From Rickettsia typhi (GTDB lineage: Bacteria > Pseudomonadota > Alphaproteobacteria > Rickettsiales > UBA1997): a DNA stretch of 64,000 nt. Shown here one piece after another: positions 4,515-63,921 of the stretch. The stretch is taken from contig CAMBFC010000007.1 of assembly GCA_945865905.1 (NCBI GenBank), forward strand, positions 7,706 through 71,705, written 5' to 3'. Numbering within the stretch: the stretch's first letter is position 1; every line of letters starts with the position of its first letter. The notes beneath the pieces were generated by a model, which made no database searches, was not told where the DNA came from, and was given only the letters and a program-made list of their open reading frames with translations. The translations under genes were made by a program, and so were the position numbers.

Positions 4515-4630
4515 GTGTTTGGATCTCGATTTACAGATGAATCATCTCCTGCTTATTGATTTTATTTCGCGCGCAAGCACAGCTACATAAAATCAATAAG
4601 CAGGAGATGATTCGTCTGTAACGCACAGCG
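4515..4630 (+). repeat. Family-A hairpin repeat, copy A1
   Basis: Terminus GTGTTTGGATCTCGATTT. Hairpin 4533-4619 has 32-nt arms with one T:G, around the conserved loop ATTTCGCGCGCAAGCACAGCTACAT. Tail TAACGCACAGC. Confidence 0.9.
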
Positions 4631-12197: not shown

Positions 12198-12568
12198 TAG
12201 ATCTCGTTTTACAGCTTAATTATCTGTTGAAATTGAATTTATTTATCGCAAGTAAATCATTTTATTTTGCGCGCAAGCACAGCTACATAAAATGATTTAC
12301 TTGCGATAAATAAATTCAATTTCAACAGATAATTAAGCTGTAACGCACCAATTTTGTTAGTTTGTTTTAAATATTCTGCAAAGGACTTGTTGTTAGTTTT
12401 TTGCAAAAGATTTACGCATTATTCGTAAGATAGATTGATTGTCTAATTAGGGGCTCTGAGGCGAGTTCTGCTTTTATCGCAAGCTACGCTTGCTTTAATC
12501 AGATGAAAGCGGTGTCTGAGCAGCAGAGCCCCTAATTAGACAATCAATCTATCGTGAAAACGAGATCC
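12198..12568. repeat. Composite ~370-bp repeat element: terminus, family-A hairpin A2, spacer, family-B hairpin B1 (inverted core), inverted terminus
   Basis: TAGATCTCGTTTT at 12198 and AAAACGAGATC ending at 12567 are inverted repeats. A2 hairpin 12211-12341 has perfect 54-nt arms around ATTTTGCGCGCAAGCACAGCTACAT. B1 hairpin is 12429-12553. Confidence 0.9.
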
Positions 12569-20431: not shown

Positions 20432-20655
20432 GTTATAAATTTTTGTGCTATTCTATATTGAGAAAATTCAGTTAATTTAGAAAGTAAGTTAATTAGAAGG
20501 AGAGGCTCTGCTGCTCAGACACCGCGTTCATCTGATTAAAGCAAGCGTAGCTTGCGATGAAACGCAGAACTTGCCTCAGAGCCTCTCCTCCTAATTAACT
20601 TACTTTCTAAATTAACTGAATTTTCTCAATATAGAATAGCACAAAAATTTATAAC
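20432..20655 (+). repeat. Family-B hairpin repeat, copy B2, with ~79-nt arms filling the lgt/queC divergent intergenic region
   Basis: Core GGCTCTGCTGCTCAGACACCGCGTTCATCTGATTAAAGCAAGCGTAGCTTGCGATGAAACGCAGAACTTGCCTCAGAGCC, flanked by inverted arms with a single mismatch. Confidence 0.92.
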
Positions 20656-25873: not shown

Positions 25874-26240
25874 TAGATCTCGTCCTCGGCAAGGCTTGAA
25901 GTGAGGGGCTCTGCTGCTCAGACACCGCACCCATCTGATTTAAGCGAGCGTAGCTCGCGATGGGATGCAGAACTCGCCTCAGAGCCCCTCACTTCAAGCC
26001 TTGCCTTTCTTGGGCTTTTGTGGGTTTTTGGCTTTTTGGGTTTGGATTTGTGCATTGATTTATCTGGTATTAATGGTTTTTACACATTATTCGTAAGATA
26101 GATTGATTGTTTGGGGAAGGGGCTCTGAGGCGACTTCTGCGCTTCATCGCAAGCTACGCTTGCTTTAATCAGATGAACTCGGTGTCTGAGCAGCAGAGCC
26201 CCTTCCCCAAACAATCAATCTATTACAAAAACGAGATCTA
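25874..26240. repeat. Composite ~367-bp repeat element: terminus, family-B hairpin B3 (+), T/G-rich spacer, family-B hairpin B4 (-), inverted terminus
   Basis: TAGATCTCGT at 25874 and ACGAGATCTA at 26231-26240 are inverted repeats. B3 is 25888-26005 with perfect 26-nt arms. B4 is 26098-26223 with perfect 30-nt arms. Confidence 0.92.
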
Positions 26241-34762: not shown

Positions 34763-34875
34763 TTTAGATTGTGCCTCACAGATAAATTATTGAGCGGAGG
34801 TCATTTTATTTCGCACGCAAGCACAGCTACATAAAACGACCTTCGCTCAATAATTTATCTGTAACGAAAAGTGCG
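34763..34875 (+). repeat. Family-A hairpin repeat, copy A3
   Basis: Degenerate terminus TTTTAGATTG. Hairpin 34778-34862 has 31-nt arms with two transition mismatches around ATTTCGCACGCAAGCACAGCTACAT. Tail TAACG. Confidence 0.88.
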
Positions 34876-34903: not shown

Positions 34904-36019
34904 ATGAAAAACCTAATAGGATTAACCAAAGAGCAACTAACGCAAGAGCTTATAAACATTGGCGAGAAGCCCTTTCGTGCCGCGCAAATTTGGAATTGGA
35001 TTTATGTTCGTGGTGTGCAAGATTTTTCTGCGATGAGCAACATTTCGAAGGCGACGCAAGAAGTTTTGGCAAAAAATTTTACCCTAGCGCGGCCCATGAT
35101 CCACAAGGATTTGCTCGCTTCTGATGGCACAAGAAAATGGCTGGTAAAATTTGCCGATGGCAATCAAGTTGAGGCAGTTTTTATTCCTGAAGAAACTCGC
35201 GGCACGCTCTGCATCTCGTCGCAAGTCGGTTGCACTTTGGCTTGCAAATTTTGTCATACTGGCACGCAAACTTTGGTGCGCAACCTTGAAGCCTCTGAAA
35301 TTGTGGGTCAAATCATGATCGCTAAAGATTTATTGGATGATTGGAAAAAAATCGGTGTTGGCGATGTAGCAGCTTCACCATCGCGGCAAAAAATCACCAA
35401 TGTAGTGTTTATGGGCATGGGCGAGCCTTTTTATAATTATGAAAATGTTGCCGCAACCGCAAAAATCCTTAATAATGCCGATGGCTTGAGTTTATCTTCG
35501 CGAAGAATCACAATTTCTACTTCGGGCTTAGTGCCAGAAATTTTACGCATGTCAAAAGAGCTAAAAACTGCTCTAGCAATATCGCTGCACGCCACGAATG
35601 ACGAGCTTAGAACCAATATTATGGCGATCAATAAAAGATACCCTCTCGATGAATTAATGAAGGCCTGCAAAATTTATAACAATGAAAATCCGGGGCAAAA
35701 AGTTACTTTTGAATATGTGTTGCTGCGCGATGTTAATGATCGCGATGAACATGCGCGCGAGCTGATTTCACTGATTAATAAATATAATTTAAATGCTAAA
35801 ATAAACCTGATTCCATTTAATCCGTGGATGTCTTGCGGCTATGAAAGATCTAGCGATGAACGCATTGCGCAATTTCAAAAAATTCTGAAAAATAGTGATG
35901 TAGTGGCGCCAATTCGCAAAACTCGTGGTGATGATGTGATGGCGGCTTGCGGTCAGTTAAAATCTGATTCGCAGCGCATTTCTAAGCGCCAAAAAAAAGA
36001 TGATGTGGTTGGTGGTTGA
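34904..36019 (+). CDS. rlmN: 23S rRNA/tRNA adenine-C2 methyltransferase RlmN (radical SAM)
   Basis: FRAAQIWNWIY N-terminus, radical-SAM cluster CTLACKFCHTG, C-terminal AACGQL. Confidence 0.93.
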   Translation: MKNLIGLTKEQLTQELINIGEKPFRAAQIWNWIYVRGVQDFSAMSNISKATQEVLAKNFTLARPMIHKDLLASDGTRKWLVKFADGNQVEAVFIPEETRGTLCISSQVGCTLACKFCHTGTQTLVRNLEASEIVGQIMIAKDLLDDWKKIGVGDVAASPSRQKITNVVFMGMGEPFYNYENVAATAKILNNADGLSLSSRRITISTSGLVPEILRMSKELKTALAISLHATNDELRTNIMAINKRYPLDELMKACKIYNNENPGQKVTFEYVLLRDVNDRDEHARELISLINKYNLNAKINLIPFNPWMSCGYERSSDERIAQFQKILKNSDVVAPIRKTRGDDVMAACGQLKSDSQRISKRQKKDDVVGG

Positions 36020-36160
36020 AAAAGATGGGGATGGGAGTTGGATTGGGATGCTCTGCTGCTCAGACACCGCGCCCATCTGATTTAAGCAAGCGTAGCTTGC
36101 GATGGGACGCAGAACTCGCCTCAGAGCATCCCAATCCAACTCCCATCCCCATCTTTTTCA
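36017..36160 (+). repeat. Family-B hairpin repeat, copy B5 (perfect 39-nt arms; left arm starts on the rlmN stop codon)
   Basis: TGAAAAAGATGGGGATGGGAGTTGGATTGGGATGCTCTG ... core ... CAGAGCATCCCAATCCAACTCCCATCCCCATCTTTTTCA. Confidence 0.92.
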
Positions 36161-36275
36161 ATTCTATTTTTTTTGGCAAAAAAATAGAAGATTAAATAAA
36201 GATTGTTATTTGCTTTTACAAATTCCTATAATTAATTTCGACTTAATAGTTATTGAATAATTAATTAAAATTTTT

Positions 36276-38174
36276 ATGTCAAAAGCCCATCAAGATTTAT
36301 CTGTTGCAGCCCTGCCAGCAAAAATTCCATCTCCTGATGAATTAGCGACAATTATGGAGGCTAATTCTAACTCTTCAGAGGCAGATAAAGCTAGGGAGGG
36401 TTGGATCATGAGTGTTTCTAAAACCTTCTGCGCAGCAACTGCTGCCTTAATGGCTGCTGATGGAAAATTTGGTGATAAGAAAATGAATGCGACTGTGTTC
36501 GATATTTTGGATGAAGCAGAAAAAGAACATCCCGATCGAAAACAAAAAATAGCAGAATATAGAGAAATGATTCGAGCCAAAGGCTGCGGCGATGTAACAA
36601 TGTCGCAGCTTTTAAGTCATAGAAGCGGCTTAACTCAAGGCAATCATTATTTTATGCCGGGTAATTTTAGTAATGTTGAACTTTTTACTGAGTCTTATGA
36701 ATATGAAGACCCAAAAACGAAACTTCCAAAAAAGTCGGCAATTGTTACTTTCGATCCCGCTAAAAGAGGCAATGTTTTTAGCTATTGCAACCTTGGTTTT
36801 GTGCTAGCTGAAGATATGATGAGCCTTGTTGCAGATTCTGAACAAGGCTATTATGGAGAACTGCAGAACAGAATTACAAATCCTCAAAATTCTCTTGGTC
36901 TAAAACATACTAAATCAATATACGAATCAGATGAATCAAAAAAAGCTGCTAGTGAAGTTGTTAAGATTAAAGGCGCAATGTATGACTGGGGAGTTAAATC
37001 AGAAGAGACTGTTGAGCTTGATCCTTTGAAAACTACACAAAAAGGAAGCATAGCTCTTTCTGAGGGAGGTTTATGCTCAAGCGTTGGCGATCTTGAGACA
37101 TTCTATACCGAATTATCAAAATTGGCCTGCGGAATTCCAAATCTTTTGCAAACAGATCCTGCAAAAACGAGAGAAATTCACGGATTTTATCTTGATGCTT
37201 ATAAGGCGGGAGAAAAGTGTAAATCTGATTCGAATCGTGAATTATCCGTGTATTGTGCCAACCATTATTCTCTCGGCGTTATTATCGAAGCTGTTGATGA
37301 AAAAGGAAATGTAATTCCGGCTCGTGGCAATGAAGGCAAAACTCAAATTCGTTTTAATCATCTCGGAAATCAACCGGGAAATGATGCGGCAGTAAGCGCT
37401 ACAATGCCATTTTCTTTCGCAGAATTTACATCTGGAACTGCAGATTTAAAAAAAGGTGCAAGCCCTAAATTAGATGCGTCTATAAGTCAGAAAGATGTGC
37501 TTGCCAAAGATTCTCTGCTTACAATCGTAAACTGTGACTATATCGCAGAAATTGATAAATATTTTTCTAGTAAATGTGATAAAAAAACGGATAAGCATTA
37601 TAATGATGTCGATGATGAAGGTTATAATTGGCGAACATATAATCAATATTGGGAAGCGGCTCGCACAGGCAAACCTGTAGCTCAGGCTTGGCAAGCCGCC
37701 TTAACTGATGGAGACAGATTGCCATCAAACTTTAGTGAATTTCACGATGAGATTTGTGCGGCATATGCTCCAGCTAATGAAGCTTTGGCCACTTATTTTA
37801 AAGAACATTTTTGTAATGAAGATGGAGTTGTGGATAGAGCTAAAGTTAAAGAAAAACTTAAAACTGCCGCAGATTTTGAAGCAGTTAAAAAAGATATGGG
37901 TATTGAACCATTGTTGCAAACAGCGAGAGAGAAAACTCAGGAAATTTTCGCAAAATCCGATGAGCAGTTGAGATTAGAAACATTAGAAAGGCAAAACAAA
38001 ATAAAGCTGTCAAAAGCTGTTGCAACTAGCTTTGTAGAAGCTTTTGCGGATAAAATGCAACCAGATGATGAAAGAAGTTTTGTCGAAAGACTAAATCTTA
38101 AACCGACAGATCATAAATCAAGGGTCACTTCGGAAAGACTTAGCGATTCTGGATCAACGCCGCCACCTCATTAA
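36276..38174 (+). CDS. Serine hydrolase of the beta-lactamase/family-VIII esterase fold with ~230-aa unknown C-terminal extension
   Basis: S-x-x-K at SVSK (res 46-49), LLSHRSGL, Y-x-N at YCN. No signal peptide is visible. 632 aa. Confidence 0.6.
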   Translation: MSKAHQDLSVAALPAKIPSPDELATIMEANSNSSEADKAREGWIMSVSKTFCAATAALMAADGKFGDKKMNATVFDILDEAEKEHPDRKQKIAEYREMIRAKGCGDVTMSQLLSHRSGLTQGNHYFMPGNFSNVELFTESYEYEDPKTKLPKKSAIVTFDPAKRGNVFSYCNLGFVLAEDMMSLVADSEQGYYGELQNRITNPQNSLGLKHTKSIYESDESKKAASEVVKIKGAMYDWGVKSEETVELDPLKTTQKGSIALSEGGLCSSVGDLETFYTELSKLACGIPNLLQTDPAKTREIHGFYLDAYKAGEKCKSDSNRELSVYCANHYSLGVIIEAVDEKGNVIPARGNEGKTQIRFNHLGNQPGNDAAVSATMPFSFAEFTSGTADLKKGASPKLDASISQKDVLAKDSLLTIVNCDYIAEIDKYFSSKCDKKTDKHYNDVDDEGYNWRTYNQYWEAARTGKPVAQAWQAALTDGDRLPSNFSEFHDEICAAYAPANEALATYFKEHFCNEDGVVDRAKVKEKLKTAADFEAVKKDMGIEPLLQTAREKTQEIFAKSDEQLRLETLERQNKIKLSKAVATSFVEAFADKMQPDDERSFVERLNLKPTDHKSRVTSERLSDSGSTPPPH

Positions 38175-38198: not shown

Positions 38199-38340
38199 GG
38201 CTGAAGAGTCAGTTAGGTAATGCTTGAATGCGAGTTCCATTTTCATCGCAAGCTACGCTTGCTTTAATTCAGATGAAAAGGGTGTCTGAGCAGGCGAGTA
38301 TTACCTAACTGGCTCTTCAGCCGAGGGCAAGATCTATAGT
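38199..38340 (-). repeat. Family-B hairpin repeat, copy B6 (degenerate core) plus degenerate terminus
   Basis: Arms GGCTGAAGAGTCAGTTAGGTAATGCT/AGTATTACCTAACTGGCTCTTCAGCC (two transitions). Apical core CATCGCAAGCTACGCTTGCTTTAATTCAGATG is retained. Tail CCGAGGGCAAGATCTA. Confidence 0.8.
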
Positions 38341-50076: not shown

Positions 50077-50178
50077 GATAAATCATCGACTGCTTATTGA
50101 TTTTATGTAGCTGTGCTTGCGCGCGAAATAAAATCAATAAGCAGTCGATGATTTATCGTTAAAGGAGATCTAAACACA
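50077..50178 (-). repeat. Family-A hairpin repeat, copy A4 (inverted orientation)
   Basis: Hairpin 50077-50157 has perfect 29-nt arms around ATGTAGCTGTGCTTGCGCGCGAAAT. Terminus GGAGATCTAAACACA on the right. Confidence 0.9.
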
Positions 50179-53562: not shown

Positions 53563-54318
53563 ATGAATATTTTAATAAGTGGTGCCAATAGCGGTATAGG
53601 CCGCGCCCTTGCAATCGCATATTCTGCGCCTAACATAAATTTATTTTTATGTGCGCGCAATTTGCAAAAGCTACAAGAGGTTAAAGAGATTTGTCGTGAA
53701 TTAAAAGCTAATGTTTTTATTAAATCACTTGATGTTAAAAATGAAGAAGAATCGCGCGCATGGATTCAAAAAATAGAAGAAAATTACCCGCTAGATTTAA
53801 TAATTGCCAGTGCCGGAATCTCTGCTGGCACTAGTGGCGGCATTGAAAGCTCTCAACAAATCAAAGAAATTTTTTCAACTAATATCTACGGAATTCTCAA
53901 CATTATTAATCCCGCGATTGAAAAAATGAAGCAAAGAAAATCGGGGCAAATAGCGCTACTAGCCTCTCTAGCTGGCTTTCGAGGTCTACCATCTGCTCCA
54001 GCATATTCTGCTAGCAAAGCGGCGGTTAAGGTTTATGGTGAGGCTTTGCGCGGCAACTTAGCTGAGTTTGGAATCAAGGTAAATGTGGTTTGCCCTGGTT
54101 ATGTAAAAACCCCAATGACTGATGTGAATGATTTTCCAATGCCATTTTTAATGCCAGTTGAAAAAGCAGCAAAAATAATAAAAAATGGCATCAGAAAAAA
54201 TAAATCACGAATCGCTTTTCCATTTCCACTTTATTTTGTGGTATGGCTTGCAGCCTTGCTTCCAACCAGTTTAACCGATAGAATTTTTGCAAAATTGCCC
54301 AAGAAAAAGGCTTTATAA
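53563..54318 (+). CDS. Short-chain dehydrogenase/reductase (SDR) family oxidoreductase
   Basis: Cofactor motif ISGANSGIG, NAG-like ASAG, catalytic YSASK. Confidence 0.88.
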   Translation: MNILISGANSGIGRALAIAYSAPNINLFLCARNLQKLQEVKEICRELKANVFIKSLDVKNEEESRAWIQKIEENYPLDLIIASAGISAGTSGGIESSQQIKEIFSTNIYGILNIINPAIEKMKQRKSGQIALLASLAGFRGLPSAPAYSASKAAVKVYGEALRGNLAEFGIKVNVVCPGYVKTPMTDVNDFPMPFLMPVEKAAKIIKNGIRKNKSRIAFPFPLYFVVWLAALLPTSLTDRIFAKLPKKKAL

Positions 54319-54329
54319 AGTGGGAGAGG

Positions 54330-54507
54330 GTAGAGAATTAGGTTTGAGTTATAAATTATCTCGTGAGTATGGGAGAGGAGCTCTGAGGCGAGTTCTGCGC
54401 TTCATCGCAAGCTACGCTTGCTTAAATCAGATGAACGCGGTGTCTGAGCAGCAGAGCTCCTCTCCCATACTCACGAGATAATTTATAACTAAAACCTAAT
54501 TCTCTAC
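54330..54507 (-). repeat. Family-B hairpin repeat, copy B7 (56-nt arms; right arm overlaps the last 3 codons plus stop of the downstream gene)
   Basis: Arms GTAGAGAATTAGGTTTGAGTTATAAATTATCTCGTGAGTATGGGAGAGGAGCTCTG and its complement, with one G:A mismatch. Typical inverted B core. Confidence 0.92.
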
Positions 54508-55293
54508 AATAAACCCATTTTCCTTAAAAATATTCTTCGCCTGCGTCGTCTTCAAAAACTTCAAAAATTCTCGCGCAATATCCATATTATCACCAGCAAT
54601 CACCAGTGCTTGATAAAAAAGATGCTGACTTTTCTTGCGCGATAAAATTCTTAACTCATCGCGATTATTAACCTGACTCGCCAATAAAATCGCATAGCTA
54701 TCGGCATTATCTTGCAATAAATTTGCGATTGACGATTTATCTTCACTCAGTTTTGTAAATAGCTTAATATCATGAATCTGTAGTGATTCTATGATATTTT
54801 TGCTATATTTTCCTAACGAAGAATCTTCGTTATCGATGATTAAATTTAAGTGATTTTGGTTTAAAATTTGTAACGCTTCTTCAAAATCAGGATTTTTTTC
54901 TAGCAAATAACTTGGTGCTGATAAATTATCATGAGAGGTTACCAGAACTAGATCATCGCTAGCAATATGGCTAACATTATAAATATCAATCAGGCCTTTT
55001 TGCTTCAAATTAAGCAACCAATCTTGGTGAGCCGAAATAAAAACATCCGCTGGTTCACCAGAGTCAATATCATTGATTAAGTCAGCAGCAGAAGCAAACC
55101 CCACCGAAACAATCACCGCATTTTTTTGCGAATAAGTGCGTGAAATTTTAGTGAGGGCAGCAACCAAATTGGGCTCAGCAAGAACGGTTAAGCTCTTGAT
55201 TTGAGAAGCATTAACCGTGGTTGCGCAAAATAAGAACAGCACCGTAAATGCCAAAATATTTTGCAATAATCCACGGCCAAAATTTAAAATCAT
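54496..55293 (-). CDS. Periplasmic substrate-binding protein, ModA-like (molybdate/anion SBP family)
   Basis: Signal-like N-terminus. LTVLAEPNLVAALTKISRTYSQKN...SVGFASAADLINDIDSGEPADVFISA resembles the ModA family. 4-nt overlap with nrdB. Confidence 0.45.
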   Translation of the reverse strand: MILNFGRGLLQNILAFTVLFLFCATTVNASQIKSLTVLAEPNLVAALTKISRTYSQKNAVIVSVGFASAADLINDIDSGEPADVFISAHQDWLLNLKQKGLIDIYNVSHIASDDLVLVTSHDNLSAPSYLLEKNPDFEEALQILNQNHLNLIIDNEDSSLGKYSKNIIESLQIHDIKLFTKLSEDKSSIANLLQDNADSYAILLASQVNNRDELRILSRKKSQHLFYQALVIAGDNMDIAREFLKFLKTTQAKNIFKENGFIVEN

Positions 55294-63784: not shown

Positions 63785-63921
63785 TTTTATTTAGATCTTA
63801 TGCCCTTGCTTAAGCCTGCCTTCAACAAATAATTCACCTGCTGTTTATTAATTTTATTTCGCGCGCAAGCACAGCTACATAAAATCAATAAACAGCAGGT
63901 GAATTATTTGTAACGCACAGC
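63785..63921 (+). repeat. Family-A hairpin repeat, copy A5
   Basis: Degenerate terminus TTTAGATCTTATG. Hairpin 63826-63910 has 31-nt arms with one A:C around ATTTCGCGCGCAAGCACAGCTACAT. Tail TAACGCACAGC. Confidence 0.9.

What the first reader, a model, noticed from the sequence alone, without database searches (positions are those of the whole stretch)
54330..54507. Hairpin arms contain mirror copies of neighbouring gene ends, implying arms are templated from host flanking DNA
In B7 the right arm covers the last three codons plus the stop of the ModA-like gene on the minus strand (GTA GAG AAT TAG, reading V-E-N-stop at 54507-54496). The left arm carries the same 12 nt as GTAGAGAATTAG at 54330-54341, where it has no coding role. 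In B5 the left arm begins exactly at the rlmN stop codon TGA (36017), which is mirrored as TCA at 36158-36160. Pairing even extends one more base into the last codon. Together with the arms being largely copy-specific yet perfect over up to 79 nt, this points to a mechanism that copies the flank on one side of the core to the other side in inverted orientation (fold-back or hairpin-primed synthesis, or palindrome gene conversion). It argues against insertion of a fixed-sequence element. I am not aware of a described bacterial repeat that generates inverted duplications of its target flank.
Basis: partly seen in the sequence, partly recalled or inferred. Interest (0 to 1): 0.78.

Follow-up and report, generated by a model that had tools for sequence, protein, structure and literature searches.

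The report
Hairpin repeat that mirrors neighbouring gene ends
A family of hairpin-forming repeats in a freshwater Rickettsiales genome keeps its two arms near-identical and lets them grow outward, so some arms carry a mirror copy of a neighbouring gene's end or start; the copying process is a known kind of replication error, here on an unusual scale.

Summary
B7 is a 56-nt inverted repeat with one mismatch, around a 66-nt core. Its modA-side arm holds GTAGAGAATTAG (V-E-N-stop), and the same 12 nt sit at 54330-54341 outside any gene.

The ModA C-terminus GFIVE(N) is conserved in over 100 homologues, most without the element, so the distant copy is secondary. Related MAGs give stronger cases: 35 nt of hemD coding sequence mirrored, and a palindrome running from the serS ATG to the dapE ATG.

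B5 is not such a case. Its arm (TTRAAAAAGATGRGGAT...) recurs at unrelated loci, so it belongs to the element.

The claim that this is not a fixed-sequence element fails. Many B copies, and a sister family A, share conserved asymmetric ends (TAGATCTCG...) and even whole arms.

Paralogous copies differ almost only by changes present on both arms. Arms of orthologous copies differ about 10-20% between species yet stay 98-99% self-complementary.

My best explanation is a MITE-like hairpin repeat whose arms are homogenised and extended after insertion by intra-palindrome template switching. Selection permits only copying from constrained gene termini onto free DNA. This is a new variant of known kinds.

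The parts
54330..54341 (-). Non-coding mirror copy of the modA gene end (GTAGAGAATTAG on the + strand); outermost 12 nt of the SDR-side arm of B7
   Evidence: The modA end is ancestral, so this copy is derived.
54330..54385 (-). B7 arm distal to modA (3' arm in core orientation)
   Evidence: I4. The orthologous arm survives in L026 with 9 mismatches and 2 gap columns in 51.
54380..54457 (-). B7 conserved core including the GCTCTG...CAGAGC clamp
   Evidence: nhmmer. Core alignment and 9 covarying pairs.
54452..54507 (-). B7 arm proximal to modA (5' arm in core orientation); its outer 12 nt are the modA codons V-E-N plus stop
54496..55293 (-). ModA-like molybdate-binding protein gene (PF13531)
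53563..54318 (+). SDR oxidoreductase gene, convergent with modA; its stop lies 11 nt from the B7 arm
36016..36161 (+). B5: 40-nt perfect arms plus core. The arm overlaps the rlmN stop by 4 nt and is element-borne (TTRAAAAAGATG... type)
20432..20655 (+). B2: 79-nt arms (78/79) filling the lgt(-)/queC(+) divergent intergenic region to 8 nt from each ATG
12429..12553 (-). B1, class II copy with conserved termini TAGATCTCG... / ...TTACGAATAATG
25888..26005 (+). B3, class I copy with termini TAGATCTCGTCCTC / TTTCTTG
26098..26223 (-). B4, class II copy
38199..38322 (-). B6, class I copy, degraded (4 arm mismatches, altered clamp)
12209..12343 (+). A-family copy with a 62-nt stem. About 44 nt of variable, perfectly paired stem lie inside the conserved termini
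4531..4621 (+). A-family copy
34778..34862 (+). A-family copy
50077..50157 (-). A-family copy
63825..63911 (+). A-family copy

Best explanation
B, and its sister family A, is a non-coding MITE-like hairpin repeat of a freshwater Rickettsiales lineage. It has a conserved, directional apical module. In the B family this is GCTCTG-CTGCTCAGACACC...CATCTGATTWAAGCAAGCGTAGCTTGCGATG...GAACTCGCCT-CAGAGC. Many copies also have conserved asymmetric termini.

Once a copy is in place, its two arms behave as one evolving unit. When the palindrome folds during replication, or extrudes as a cruciform, the nascent strand briefly copies the opposite arm. This is intra-palindrome template switching or hairpin-directed conversion. 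A new mutation is therefore either erased or mirrored onto the other arm.

When such copying runs past the base of the stem, the flank on one side is overwritten by, or gains, the reverse complement of the other flank, and the stem lengthens. Only events that copy a constrained flank (a gene's last codons, or a start codon with its leader) onto unconstrained DNA survive selection. Arms therefore grow until both ends meet coding sequence, and some end up holding a mirror pseudo-copy of a gene terminus, as at 54330-54341.

Shown: the anatomy, the ancestry of the gene end, the compensated differences, the contrast between orthologous divergence and within-copy identity, and strain polymorphism. 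Inferred: the molecular step (template switch versus mismatch repair of a cruciform) and its timing after insertion.
For: 1. The gene end is ancestral. The ModA C-terminus GFIVE(N) is seen in the homologues, and VEN-stop is present in element-free L034.
2. Outgroup loci L039, L040, L029 and L034 have 1-35 nt after modA and no hairpin.
3. Concerted arms. Paralogous copies differ almost only at positions changed on both arms: B5 vs L007- 11 compensated and 0 single; L010 vs L018 5 and 0; B1 vs B4 6 and 0; I7 vs I9 13 and 1.
4. Arms of orthologous copies diverge while each copy stays symmetric. B7 has 1/56 mismatches within the window copy, against 9 mismatches plus 2 gap columns in 51 between the window and L026 right arms. 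B2 has 1/79 within, against 8 mismatches plus 1 gap in 80 versus L041.
5. L026 has lost the core but carries a fresh 12-nt inverted copy of its own gene end that follows the synonymous GTA to GTG change. The older outer copy has decayed.
6. Growth to gene boundaries. B2 stops 8 nt from both ATGs. L011 spans serS ATG to dapE ATG with 97-nt arms. The L009 arm contains 35 nt of hemD. The L020 arms contain the aroA and leuD ends.
7. Every strong inverted repeat in the window carries an A or B core. Core-free loci of relatives have no long inverted repeats.
8. Variable but perfectly paired stem segments also lie inside conserved termini (I3 and class I/II copies). Symmetry is therefore maintained independently of host flanks.
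9. Template switching is documented to homogenise and expand inverted-repeat arms (PMC8794818, PMC8604942, PMC13100816).
Against: - No locus gave both arms in two species, because contigs of relatives break inside the core (L041-43). Mirrored substitutions in orthologous copies are inferred from the divergence contrast and were not seen directly.
- Selection for pairing, on an RNA or DNA hairpin, could mimic homogenisation, although it is implausible for 79-97-bp stems.
- Loop inversion, a frequent by-product of template switching, is not seen. Core orientation is fixed relative to the termini in all copies with recognisable termini except the hybrid L020-3630.
- The history of the B7 locus is not fully resolved. 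L037 (ModA 99% identical) lacks the core and one arm. I read it as a secondary deletion only because L026 keeps the arm.
- Strains L021 and L024 carry an uncorrected 2-nt asymmetry, so correction is slow.
Confidence: 0.6

Rival explanations
1. Inverted target duplication at insertion. The mobile unit is the core with short arms, and integration involves fold-back or hairpin-primed synthesis that copies one target flank to the other side. The long arms are then created in one step when the element lands.
For: Taken at face value, L037 is the window sequence minus [element + reverse complement of about 30 nt of the left flank], with the right flank intact. That is what a clean insertion with an inverted flank copy would look like. 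All long palindromes carry a core.
Against: - L026, a more distant relative, retains the right arm including its element-proper part. The element therefore predates the split, and L037 is most simply a deletion.
- Class I and II copies have intact, non-mirrored termini, so insertion need not duplicate flanks.
- Arms stay 98-99% symmetric while arms of orthologous copies diverge 10-20%. This needs continuing correction whatever happened at insertion.
- L026 made a new mirror copy without a core.
Confidence: 0.15
2. Cores insert into, or swap within, the centre of pre-existing hairpins such as terminators or older palindromic elements. The arms, including the modA-end stem, were there first.
For: - Class II B copies in the Baikal MAG sit on the same arms and termini as A-family copies (GATAAATCAYC...CTGCYYATTGA), so the apical modules are interchangeable.
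- L026 has a 19-bp hairpin that includes the modA end and has no core.
- Most copies lie downstream of genes.
Against: - L026 also keeps the old right arm, so it is a derivative rather than a pre-insertion state.
- Outgroups have no hairpin at the modA end.
- No unoccupied long palindrome exists in the 64-kb window or in 20 kb or more of relatives.
- A 35-nt stem of hemD coding sequence, or a 97-nt stem from ATG to ATG, is not a plausible pre-existing terminator.
- No T-run follows B7.
Confidence: 0.15
3. An ordinary fixed-sequence palindromic MITE. Neighbouring ORFs simply read into it, so the element supplies the last codons and the stop, and nothing is copied from the host.
For: This fits B5. 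Its arm is element-borne, begins TTGA or TTAA, and overlaps only the rlmN stop. The RlmN tail is not conserved. The last ~23 nt of rlmN even resemble the arm in direct orientation.
Against: It fails for B7, because V-E-N-stop predates the element. It fails for L009, because HEM4 domain residues are encoded in the arm. It fails for L011, because both ATGs are the true starts of serS and dapE. The long arms are unique to their loci.
Confidence: 0.07
4. An assembly or amplification artefact producing chimeric inverted joins.
For: Many contigs end inside B. L051 joins the B5 left half to a different right half.
Against: The same B7 and B2 structures lie internal to contigs in independent assemblies from different samples and pipelines (L021, L024, L049). 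Diverged orthologous copies occur in other species (L026, L041). The L037 junction shares only 3 nt with the window sequence, so it cannot be a k-mer shortcut.
Confidence: 0.02

Closest known systems
Template-switch (quasipalindrome) mutation: homogenisation and expansion of inverted-repeat arms (Ripley/Lovett model; PMC8794818, PMC8604942, PMC13100816, PMC5941160)
   Same: It produces reverse-complement copies of nearby sequence. It fixes mismatches in both arms at once, giving multi-base compensatory changes. It can lengthen a stem by copying past its base. These are the footprints seen.
   Different: Described events are usually a few to a few tens of bases in short inverted repeats. Here stems of 40-97 bp with a 66-nt conserved spacer are maintained across a whole repeat family, and whole intergenic regions become palindromic. 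Loop inversion, common in template-switch events, is not seen.
Rickettsia palindromic elements (RPE; Ogata et al. 2000, 2002, as cited in PMC6649704)
   Same: Short non-coding palindromic repeats that proliferate in Rickettsiales genomes and touch coding sequence.
   Different: RPEs are fixed-sequence families inserted in frame inside genes. They are reported to lose repeat identity with time (PMC6649704). Here the arms vary between copies, are actively kept symmetric, and lie in intergenic DNA. No sequence comparison with RPE consensus sequences was possible.
REP/REPIN elements mobilised by RAYT transposases, and BIMEs (from my own knowledge)
   Same: Abundant intergenic hairpin-forming repeats, often downstream of genes, with compensatory changes in the stems.
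   Different: In REPINs the conserved sequence is in the arms (two inverted REPs) and the spacer varies. Here the centre and outer termini are conserved and the stem between them varies. No RAYT gene was seen in the window.
Perfect coding palindromes in Nematomorpha mitochondrial genes (PMC6649704)
   Same: Long, essentially mismatch-free inverted repeats that involve coding sequence, with gain and loss between species. The authors also invoke active arm conversion or template switching.
   Different: Those are mitochondrial, both arms are coding, and no conserved core or element termini are present.
Classical MITEs and Correia-type elements (from my own knowledge)
   Same: Small, non-autonomous and multi-copy, with defined ends in classes I and II. 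They sit in intergenic DNA and can donate stops or tails to genes, as B5 may do.
   Different: The conserved ends are not inverted repeats of each other. No target-site duplication or parent IS was found. Arm sequence is hypervariable.

Membership tests
Template-switch-driven inverted-repeat homogenisation/expansion (a process, not an element family) | Differences between related copies appear simultaneously on both arms as reverse complements | tested here: met
   compensated versus single-arm differences are 11/0, 5/0, 6/0, 13/1 and so on; 1/56 and 1/79 mismatches within a copy, against 9-11/51 and 8-9/80 between arms of orthologous copies.
Template-switch-driven inverted-repeat homogenisation/expansion (a process, not an element family) | Stem extension in which one flank is replaced or joined by the reverse complement of the opposite flank | tested here: met
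   B7 mirrors the ancestral modA end. L009 mirrors 35 nt of hemD. L011 is palindromic from ATG to ATG. L026 has a new 12-nt copy tracking GTG.
Template-switch-driven inverted-repeat homogenisation/expansion (a process, not an element family) | Occasional inversion of the spacer or loop | tested here: not met
   Core orientation relative to the TAGATCTCG terminus is constant in all A and B copies that have termini, except the hybrid L020-3630.
Classical IS-derived MITE | Terminal inverted repeats conserved across copies and matching a parent IS | tested here: not met
   The conserved termini are asymmetric: 5' TAGATCTCG..., and 3' ...TTTCTTG or ...TTACGAATAATG. The inverted-repeat part varies between copies. 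No transposase-like ORF was noted next to any copy, but not all window ORFs were scanned.
Classical IS-derived MITE | Direct target-site duplication | tested here: inconclusive
   No consistent direct repeat is visible around class I and II copies. No clean empty site was available.
REP/REPIN-RAYT | Conserved REP sequence forms the arms, with a variable spacer | tested here: not met
   The arrangement is the opposite: the conserved 66-78-nt centre is flanked by variable arms.
REP/REPIN-RAYT | A cognate RAYT (HUH) gene in the genome | not testable with these tools
   Only a 64-kb window and short loci of the genome are available.
Rickettsia palindromic elements (RPE) | Sequence membership in RPE-1 to RPE-8 | not testable with these tools
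   No RPE library is on hand. Rfam gave only spurious miRNA-hairpin hits below threshold.
Rickettsia palindromic elements (RPE) | In-frame insertion inside protein-coding genes | tested here: not met
   All 7 B and 5 A copies in the window are intergenic. Overlap with genes is limited to termini.
Intrinsic (Rho-independent) terminator | Short GC-rich stem followed by a T-run | tested here: not met
   The stems are 26-97 bp and AT-rich in their outer parts. B7 is followed by CCTCTCCCACTTTATAAAG, with no T-run.

The most novel reading that the evidence does not exclude
The conserved core is an active 'palindrome-nucleating' module. It would be a mobile apical cassette, or a protein-binding site, that either integrates at hairpin tips or triggers fold-back copying of its target flank. 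Inverted, rather than direct, target duplication would then be part of how the element propagates, and it could rewire neighbouring genes, for example by giving two divergent genes mirror-image promoters and leaders.
Probability: 0.2. Interest if true: 0.85.

Novelty: new variant of a known kind. Interest (0 to 1): 0.6.

Why it matters
This would be a natural bacterial system in which template-switch or conversion activity keeps arms of 26 to 97 nt nearly identical across a whole repeat family. It also makes the palindromes grow until they meet coding sequence.

Three things become testable. First, how long palindromes are tolerated in a reduced genome. Second, how such growth duplicates promoters, leaders and stop regions in mirror image, as at lgt/queC and serS/dapE. 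Third, how compensatory evolution of long stems can occur without selection on each pair.

There is also a practical point. These elements fragment metagenome assemblies and can create or hide short C-terminal extensions in gene calls.

Tried and rejected
- Rfam at gathering threshold found only two tRNAs. At relaxed threshold, B7 hit only animal miRNA precursor models far below their cut-offs. That is a generic long-hairpin match and I rejected it.
- I considered hammerhead or other ribozyme motifs by eye. Rfam does not support them.
It gave the related MAGs, but none of those loci is syntenic with the window.
- Lookups of QueC and RlmN relatives gave contigs that end inside the element, or that lack it altogether. 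Both arms of an orthologous copy were therefore never seen in a second species.
- A PDB sequence search for the L009 HemD-like protein found nothing.
- The B and A core patterns are absent from IMG/VR.
- I considered the shared 10-mer TAGGTTTTAG in the B7 and L009 arms as a sign of homology. I rejected it as compatible with chance in AT-rich sequence.
- I considered L037 as a true empty site. I judged it less likely than a deletion, because L026 retains the arm.

Full report
**1. The observation**

The sequence is as described. B7 has arms at 54330-54385 and 54452-54507, 56 nt long with 55/56 complementary, and 66 nt between them. Positions 54496-54507 are the reverse complement of GTA GAG AAT TAG. 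These are the last three codons and the stop of the minus-strand ORF 54496-55293, a PF13531 molybdate-binding protein.

The same 12 nt stand at 54330-54341. That is 11 nt past the stop of the convergent SDR gene (53563-54318), so they are not coding.

B5 has perfect 40-nt arms at 36016-36055 and 36122-36161. The rlmN stop TGA (36017-36019) lies inside the left arm.

The B core occurs seven times in the window, against none expected by chance. B7 folds at -71.6 kcal/mol, z = -17 against shuffles.

**2. The family**

The same core occurs in two freshwater Rickettsiales MAGs, Baikal-deep-G64 and Jr-7aug17-213. With a profile search I collected about 28 copies in the window and the fetched loci.

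Each copy has three parts:
- a variable stem;
- the clamp GCTCTG...CAGAGC;
- an asymmetric core with an apical GCAAGC-GTA-GCTTGC hairpin.

Nine of the 21 predicted core pairs show compensatory changes across copies.

The copies fall into classes:
- Class I has conserved non-complementary ends, 5' TAGATCTCGTCCTC and 3' TTTCTTG. Members are B3, B6, L007+ and L002-1634.
- Class II has 5' TAGATCTCG... and 3' TTACGAATAATG. Members are B1, B4, L004, L010 and L018.
- A second family, A, has five copies in the window. Its core is ATTTTATTTCGCGCGCAAGCACAGCTACATAAAAT.
- Family A shares the TAGATCTCG terminus. In the Baikal MAG it also shares the stem GATAAATYA... and the right terminus with class II B copies.
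- The remaining copies (B2, B5, B7, L009, L011, L013, L015, L016 and others) have long arms of 40-97 nt without recognisable termini.

This is therefore a modular MITE-like hairpin repeat family with fixed sequence features.

**3. Whether the gene end in the B7 arm is ancestral**

It is. The listed ModA homologues end in ...GF(I/V)(V/I)(E/D), often followed by N. L034 (77% identity) has no element and ends I-V-E-N-stop. The copy at 54330-54341 must therefore be the derived one.

Loci of more distant relatives (L039, L040, L029, L034) have only 1-35 nt after modA and no hairpin. The mirror copy thus arose within the lineage that carries the element.

**4. The orthologous B7 locus in close relatives**

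Contigs of the same species carry the element with small asymmetries, including a 2-nt indel in one arm (L021 and L024).

L026 (ModA 93% identical, syntenic) lacks the core. It keeps a homologue of the whole SDR-side arm, including its element-proper part, ...TAGACTCACGA... It also keeps a decayed outer mirror copy, CTAATTCTTTAC.

L026 additionally has a new hairpin directly at the gene end, GTGGAGAATTAG-ATTGTTT GGAT AAATAAG-CTAATTCTCCAC. The inverted copy in this hairpin follows the lineage-specific synonymous change GTA to GTG. A reverse-complement copy of the gene end was therefore made again in that lineage, without a core.

L037 (ModA 99% identical) reads GTAGAGAATTAG GTTTGAGTTATAAATTATCT | ACCCTCTCC... 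This equals the window sequence minus the inner modA-side arm, the core, and all but the last two bases of the other arm.

Because the more distant L026 retains that arm, I read L037 as a secondary deletion between TCT microhomologies, and hence as evidence of palindrome instability in the population. An alternative reading, that L037 is an empty site and the insertion carried an inverted copy of 30 nt of flank, is less parsimonious but not excluded.

**5. Concerted evolution of the arms**

Paralogous copies with alignable arms differ almost only at positions changed on both arms:

| Comparison | Changed on both arms | Changed on one arm |
|---|---|---|
| B5 vs L007- | 11 | 0 |
| L004 vs L010 | 4 | 1 |
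| L004 vs L018 | 5 | 1 |
| L010 vs L018 | 5 | 0 |
| B1 vs B4 | 6 | 0 |
| I7 vs I9 | 13 | 1 |

For the two loci with an orthologous copy, the arms diverged between species while the window copy stayed symmetric:

| Locus | Mismatches within the window copy | Window arm vs arm of orthologous copy |
|---|---|---|
| B7 | 1 of 56 | 9 mismatches + 2 gap columns in 51 (L026) |
| B2 | 1 of 79 | 8 mismatches + 1 gap in 80 (L041) |

If the arms had evolved independently since the palindrome formed, within-copy divergence should be at least as large as divergence between arms of orthologous copies. It is about ten times smaller.

The A copy I3 has about 44 nt of unique, perfectly paired stem inside the conserved termini. 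Symmetry is therefore maintained whether or not host DNA is involved. Selection on individual pairs cannot plausibly hold 79-97-bp stems perfect, so a copying process between the arms is the economical explanation.

**6. How general the gene-terminus effect is**

- L009: the arm (71 nt, 1 mismatch) contains the last 10 codons plus stop of a hemD-like gene, 35 nt in all. Pfam HEM4 aligns up to residue 217 of 223, which lies inside the arm.
- L011: 97-nt arms run from the serS ATG to the dapE ATG. Both starts are confirmed by TIGR00414 and NF009557 alignments that begin at residues 1 and 3.
- B2 in the window: the arms fill the lgt/queC divergent spacer to 8 nt from each ATG. The queC-side outer 27 nt are identical in L041, which suggests a functional leader or promoter now present in mirror image on the lgt side.
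- L020: the arms hold the aroA R-N-S-stop and the leuD V-stop.

All strong inverted repeats in the window carry an A or B core. Loci of relatives without cores have no long inverted repeats.

**7. B5 is a different case**

Its arm TTGAAAAAGATGGGGATGGGAGTTGG... is 29/40 identical, without gaps, to the arm of L007-. That copy lies at an unrelated locus in another genome, and all 11 differences are mirrored.

The same arm type appears in L012. It also forms the left half only of the hybrid copy L020-3630.

The RlmN tail after ...QLKSDSQR is not conserved among homologues. The last ~23 nt of rlmN resemble the arm in direct orientation (p about 0.0015). Here the element most likely supplies the stop, and perhaps an older tail. 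Nothing needs to have been copied from rlmN.

**8. Mechanism**

The best-supported model is post-insertional homogenisation and outward extension of the stem. The molecular step would be intra-palindrome template switching, or an equivalent hairpin- or cruciform-directed conversion. Selection filters the outcome, so that only constrained termini act as donors.

This process is documented to create, repair and expand inverted repeats (PMC8794818, PMC8604942, PMC13100816). It was also invoked for the perfect mitochondrial palindromes of Nematomorpha (PMC6649704).

Three things are unusual here. The scale is large. The effect is tied to a repeat family with a conserved asymmetric centre. Loop inversion is absent.

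**9. Rival explanations**

- Inverted flank duplication at the moment of insertion is supported only by the face-value reading of L037.
- Insertion or exchange of cores in pre-existing palindromes is clearly relevant to class II copies. It cannot explain hemD codons or ATG-to-ATG palindromes.
- Simple read-through into a fixed element is true for B5 and refuted for B7.
- Artefact is excluded by independent assemblies and by diverged copies at the orthologous loci in other species.

**10. Verdict**

The phenomenon is real and interesting. Its mechanism is a known kind of mutation acting on a new repeat family, so I rate it a new variant of a known kind, with interest 0.6.

Noticed in passing
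window 4531-4621, 12209-12343, 34778-34862, 50077-50157, 63825-63911: A second hairpin repeat family (A; core ATTTTATTTCGCGCGCAAGCACAGCTACATAAAAT) shares the TAGATCTCG terminus with B. It shares GCAAGC..AGCT in its apex with B. In the Baikal MAG it sits on the same stem and right terminus as class II B copies, so the apical modules look interchangeable.
   Followed up: partly
window 36276-38174 (between B5 36016-36161 and B6 38199-38322): A 632-aa ORF with a beta-lactamase-fold domain (PF00144) is bracketed by two B copies in opposite orientation. It is absent between rlmN and dnaJ in relative L044, and L045/L046 carry a different gene there. The rlmN-dnaJ spacer appears to be a variable hotspot, possibly mediated by B copies.
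   Followed up: partly
window 35993-36015 vs 36016-36046: The last ~23 nt of rlmN (K-K-D-D-V-V-G-G) resemble the adjacent B5 arm in direct orientation (local alignment p about 0.0015 against shuffles). The non-conserved RlmN tail may derive from an older arm or a partial tandem duplication.
   Followed up: partly
L051:2317-2520 (same species as the window): The same rlmN, B5 left arm and core are followed from GAACTCG onward by a different right half and different downstream genes (ankyrin, ABC). This is either recombination between B copies or an assembly chimera through the repeat.
   Followed up: no
L037:2019-2052 (ModA 99% identical): A strain-level allele lacks the B7 core and one arm. 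The junction ATCT|ACCC shows only TCT microhomology. This is evidence of palindrome deletion, or presence/absence polymorphism, within the population.
   Followed up: yes
L032:3299-3470 and L044:4111-4312: A shortened B variant (GCCCCTCAGACAGCGGCGCGCCGAACTCGG) keeps the internal-loop motifs but lacks the apical hairpin. It occupies the modA/SDR and rlmN/dnaJ spacers in a relative with 81-88% protein identity. The same spacers were therefore colonised independently by related elements.
   Followed up: partly
L012:3870-3952; L020:3600-3720: L012 has a tandem direct duplication of the left arm plus the start of the core. L020-3630 is a hybrid whose left arm is B5-type and whose right side is an inverted class I terminus. 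These point to slippage and recombination among copies.
   Followed up: no
L022, L023, L025, L041-L043, L048, L050, L052, L053 (contig ends): Many metagenome contigs from several pipelines terminate inside B elements. The repeats systematically fragment assemblies of this lineage.
   Followed up: no
window 20432-20655; L011:3862-4123: Divergent gene pairs (lgt/queC and serS/dapE) have mirror-image upstream regions. Both genes of each pair presumably share one promoter and leader sequence.
   Followed up: partly
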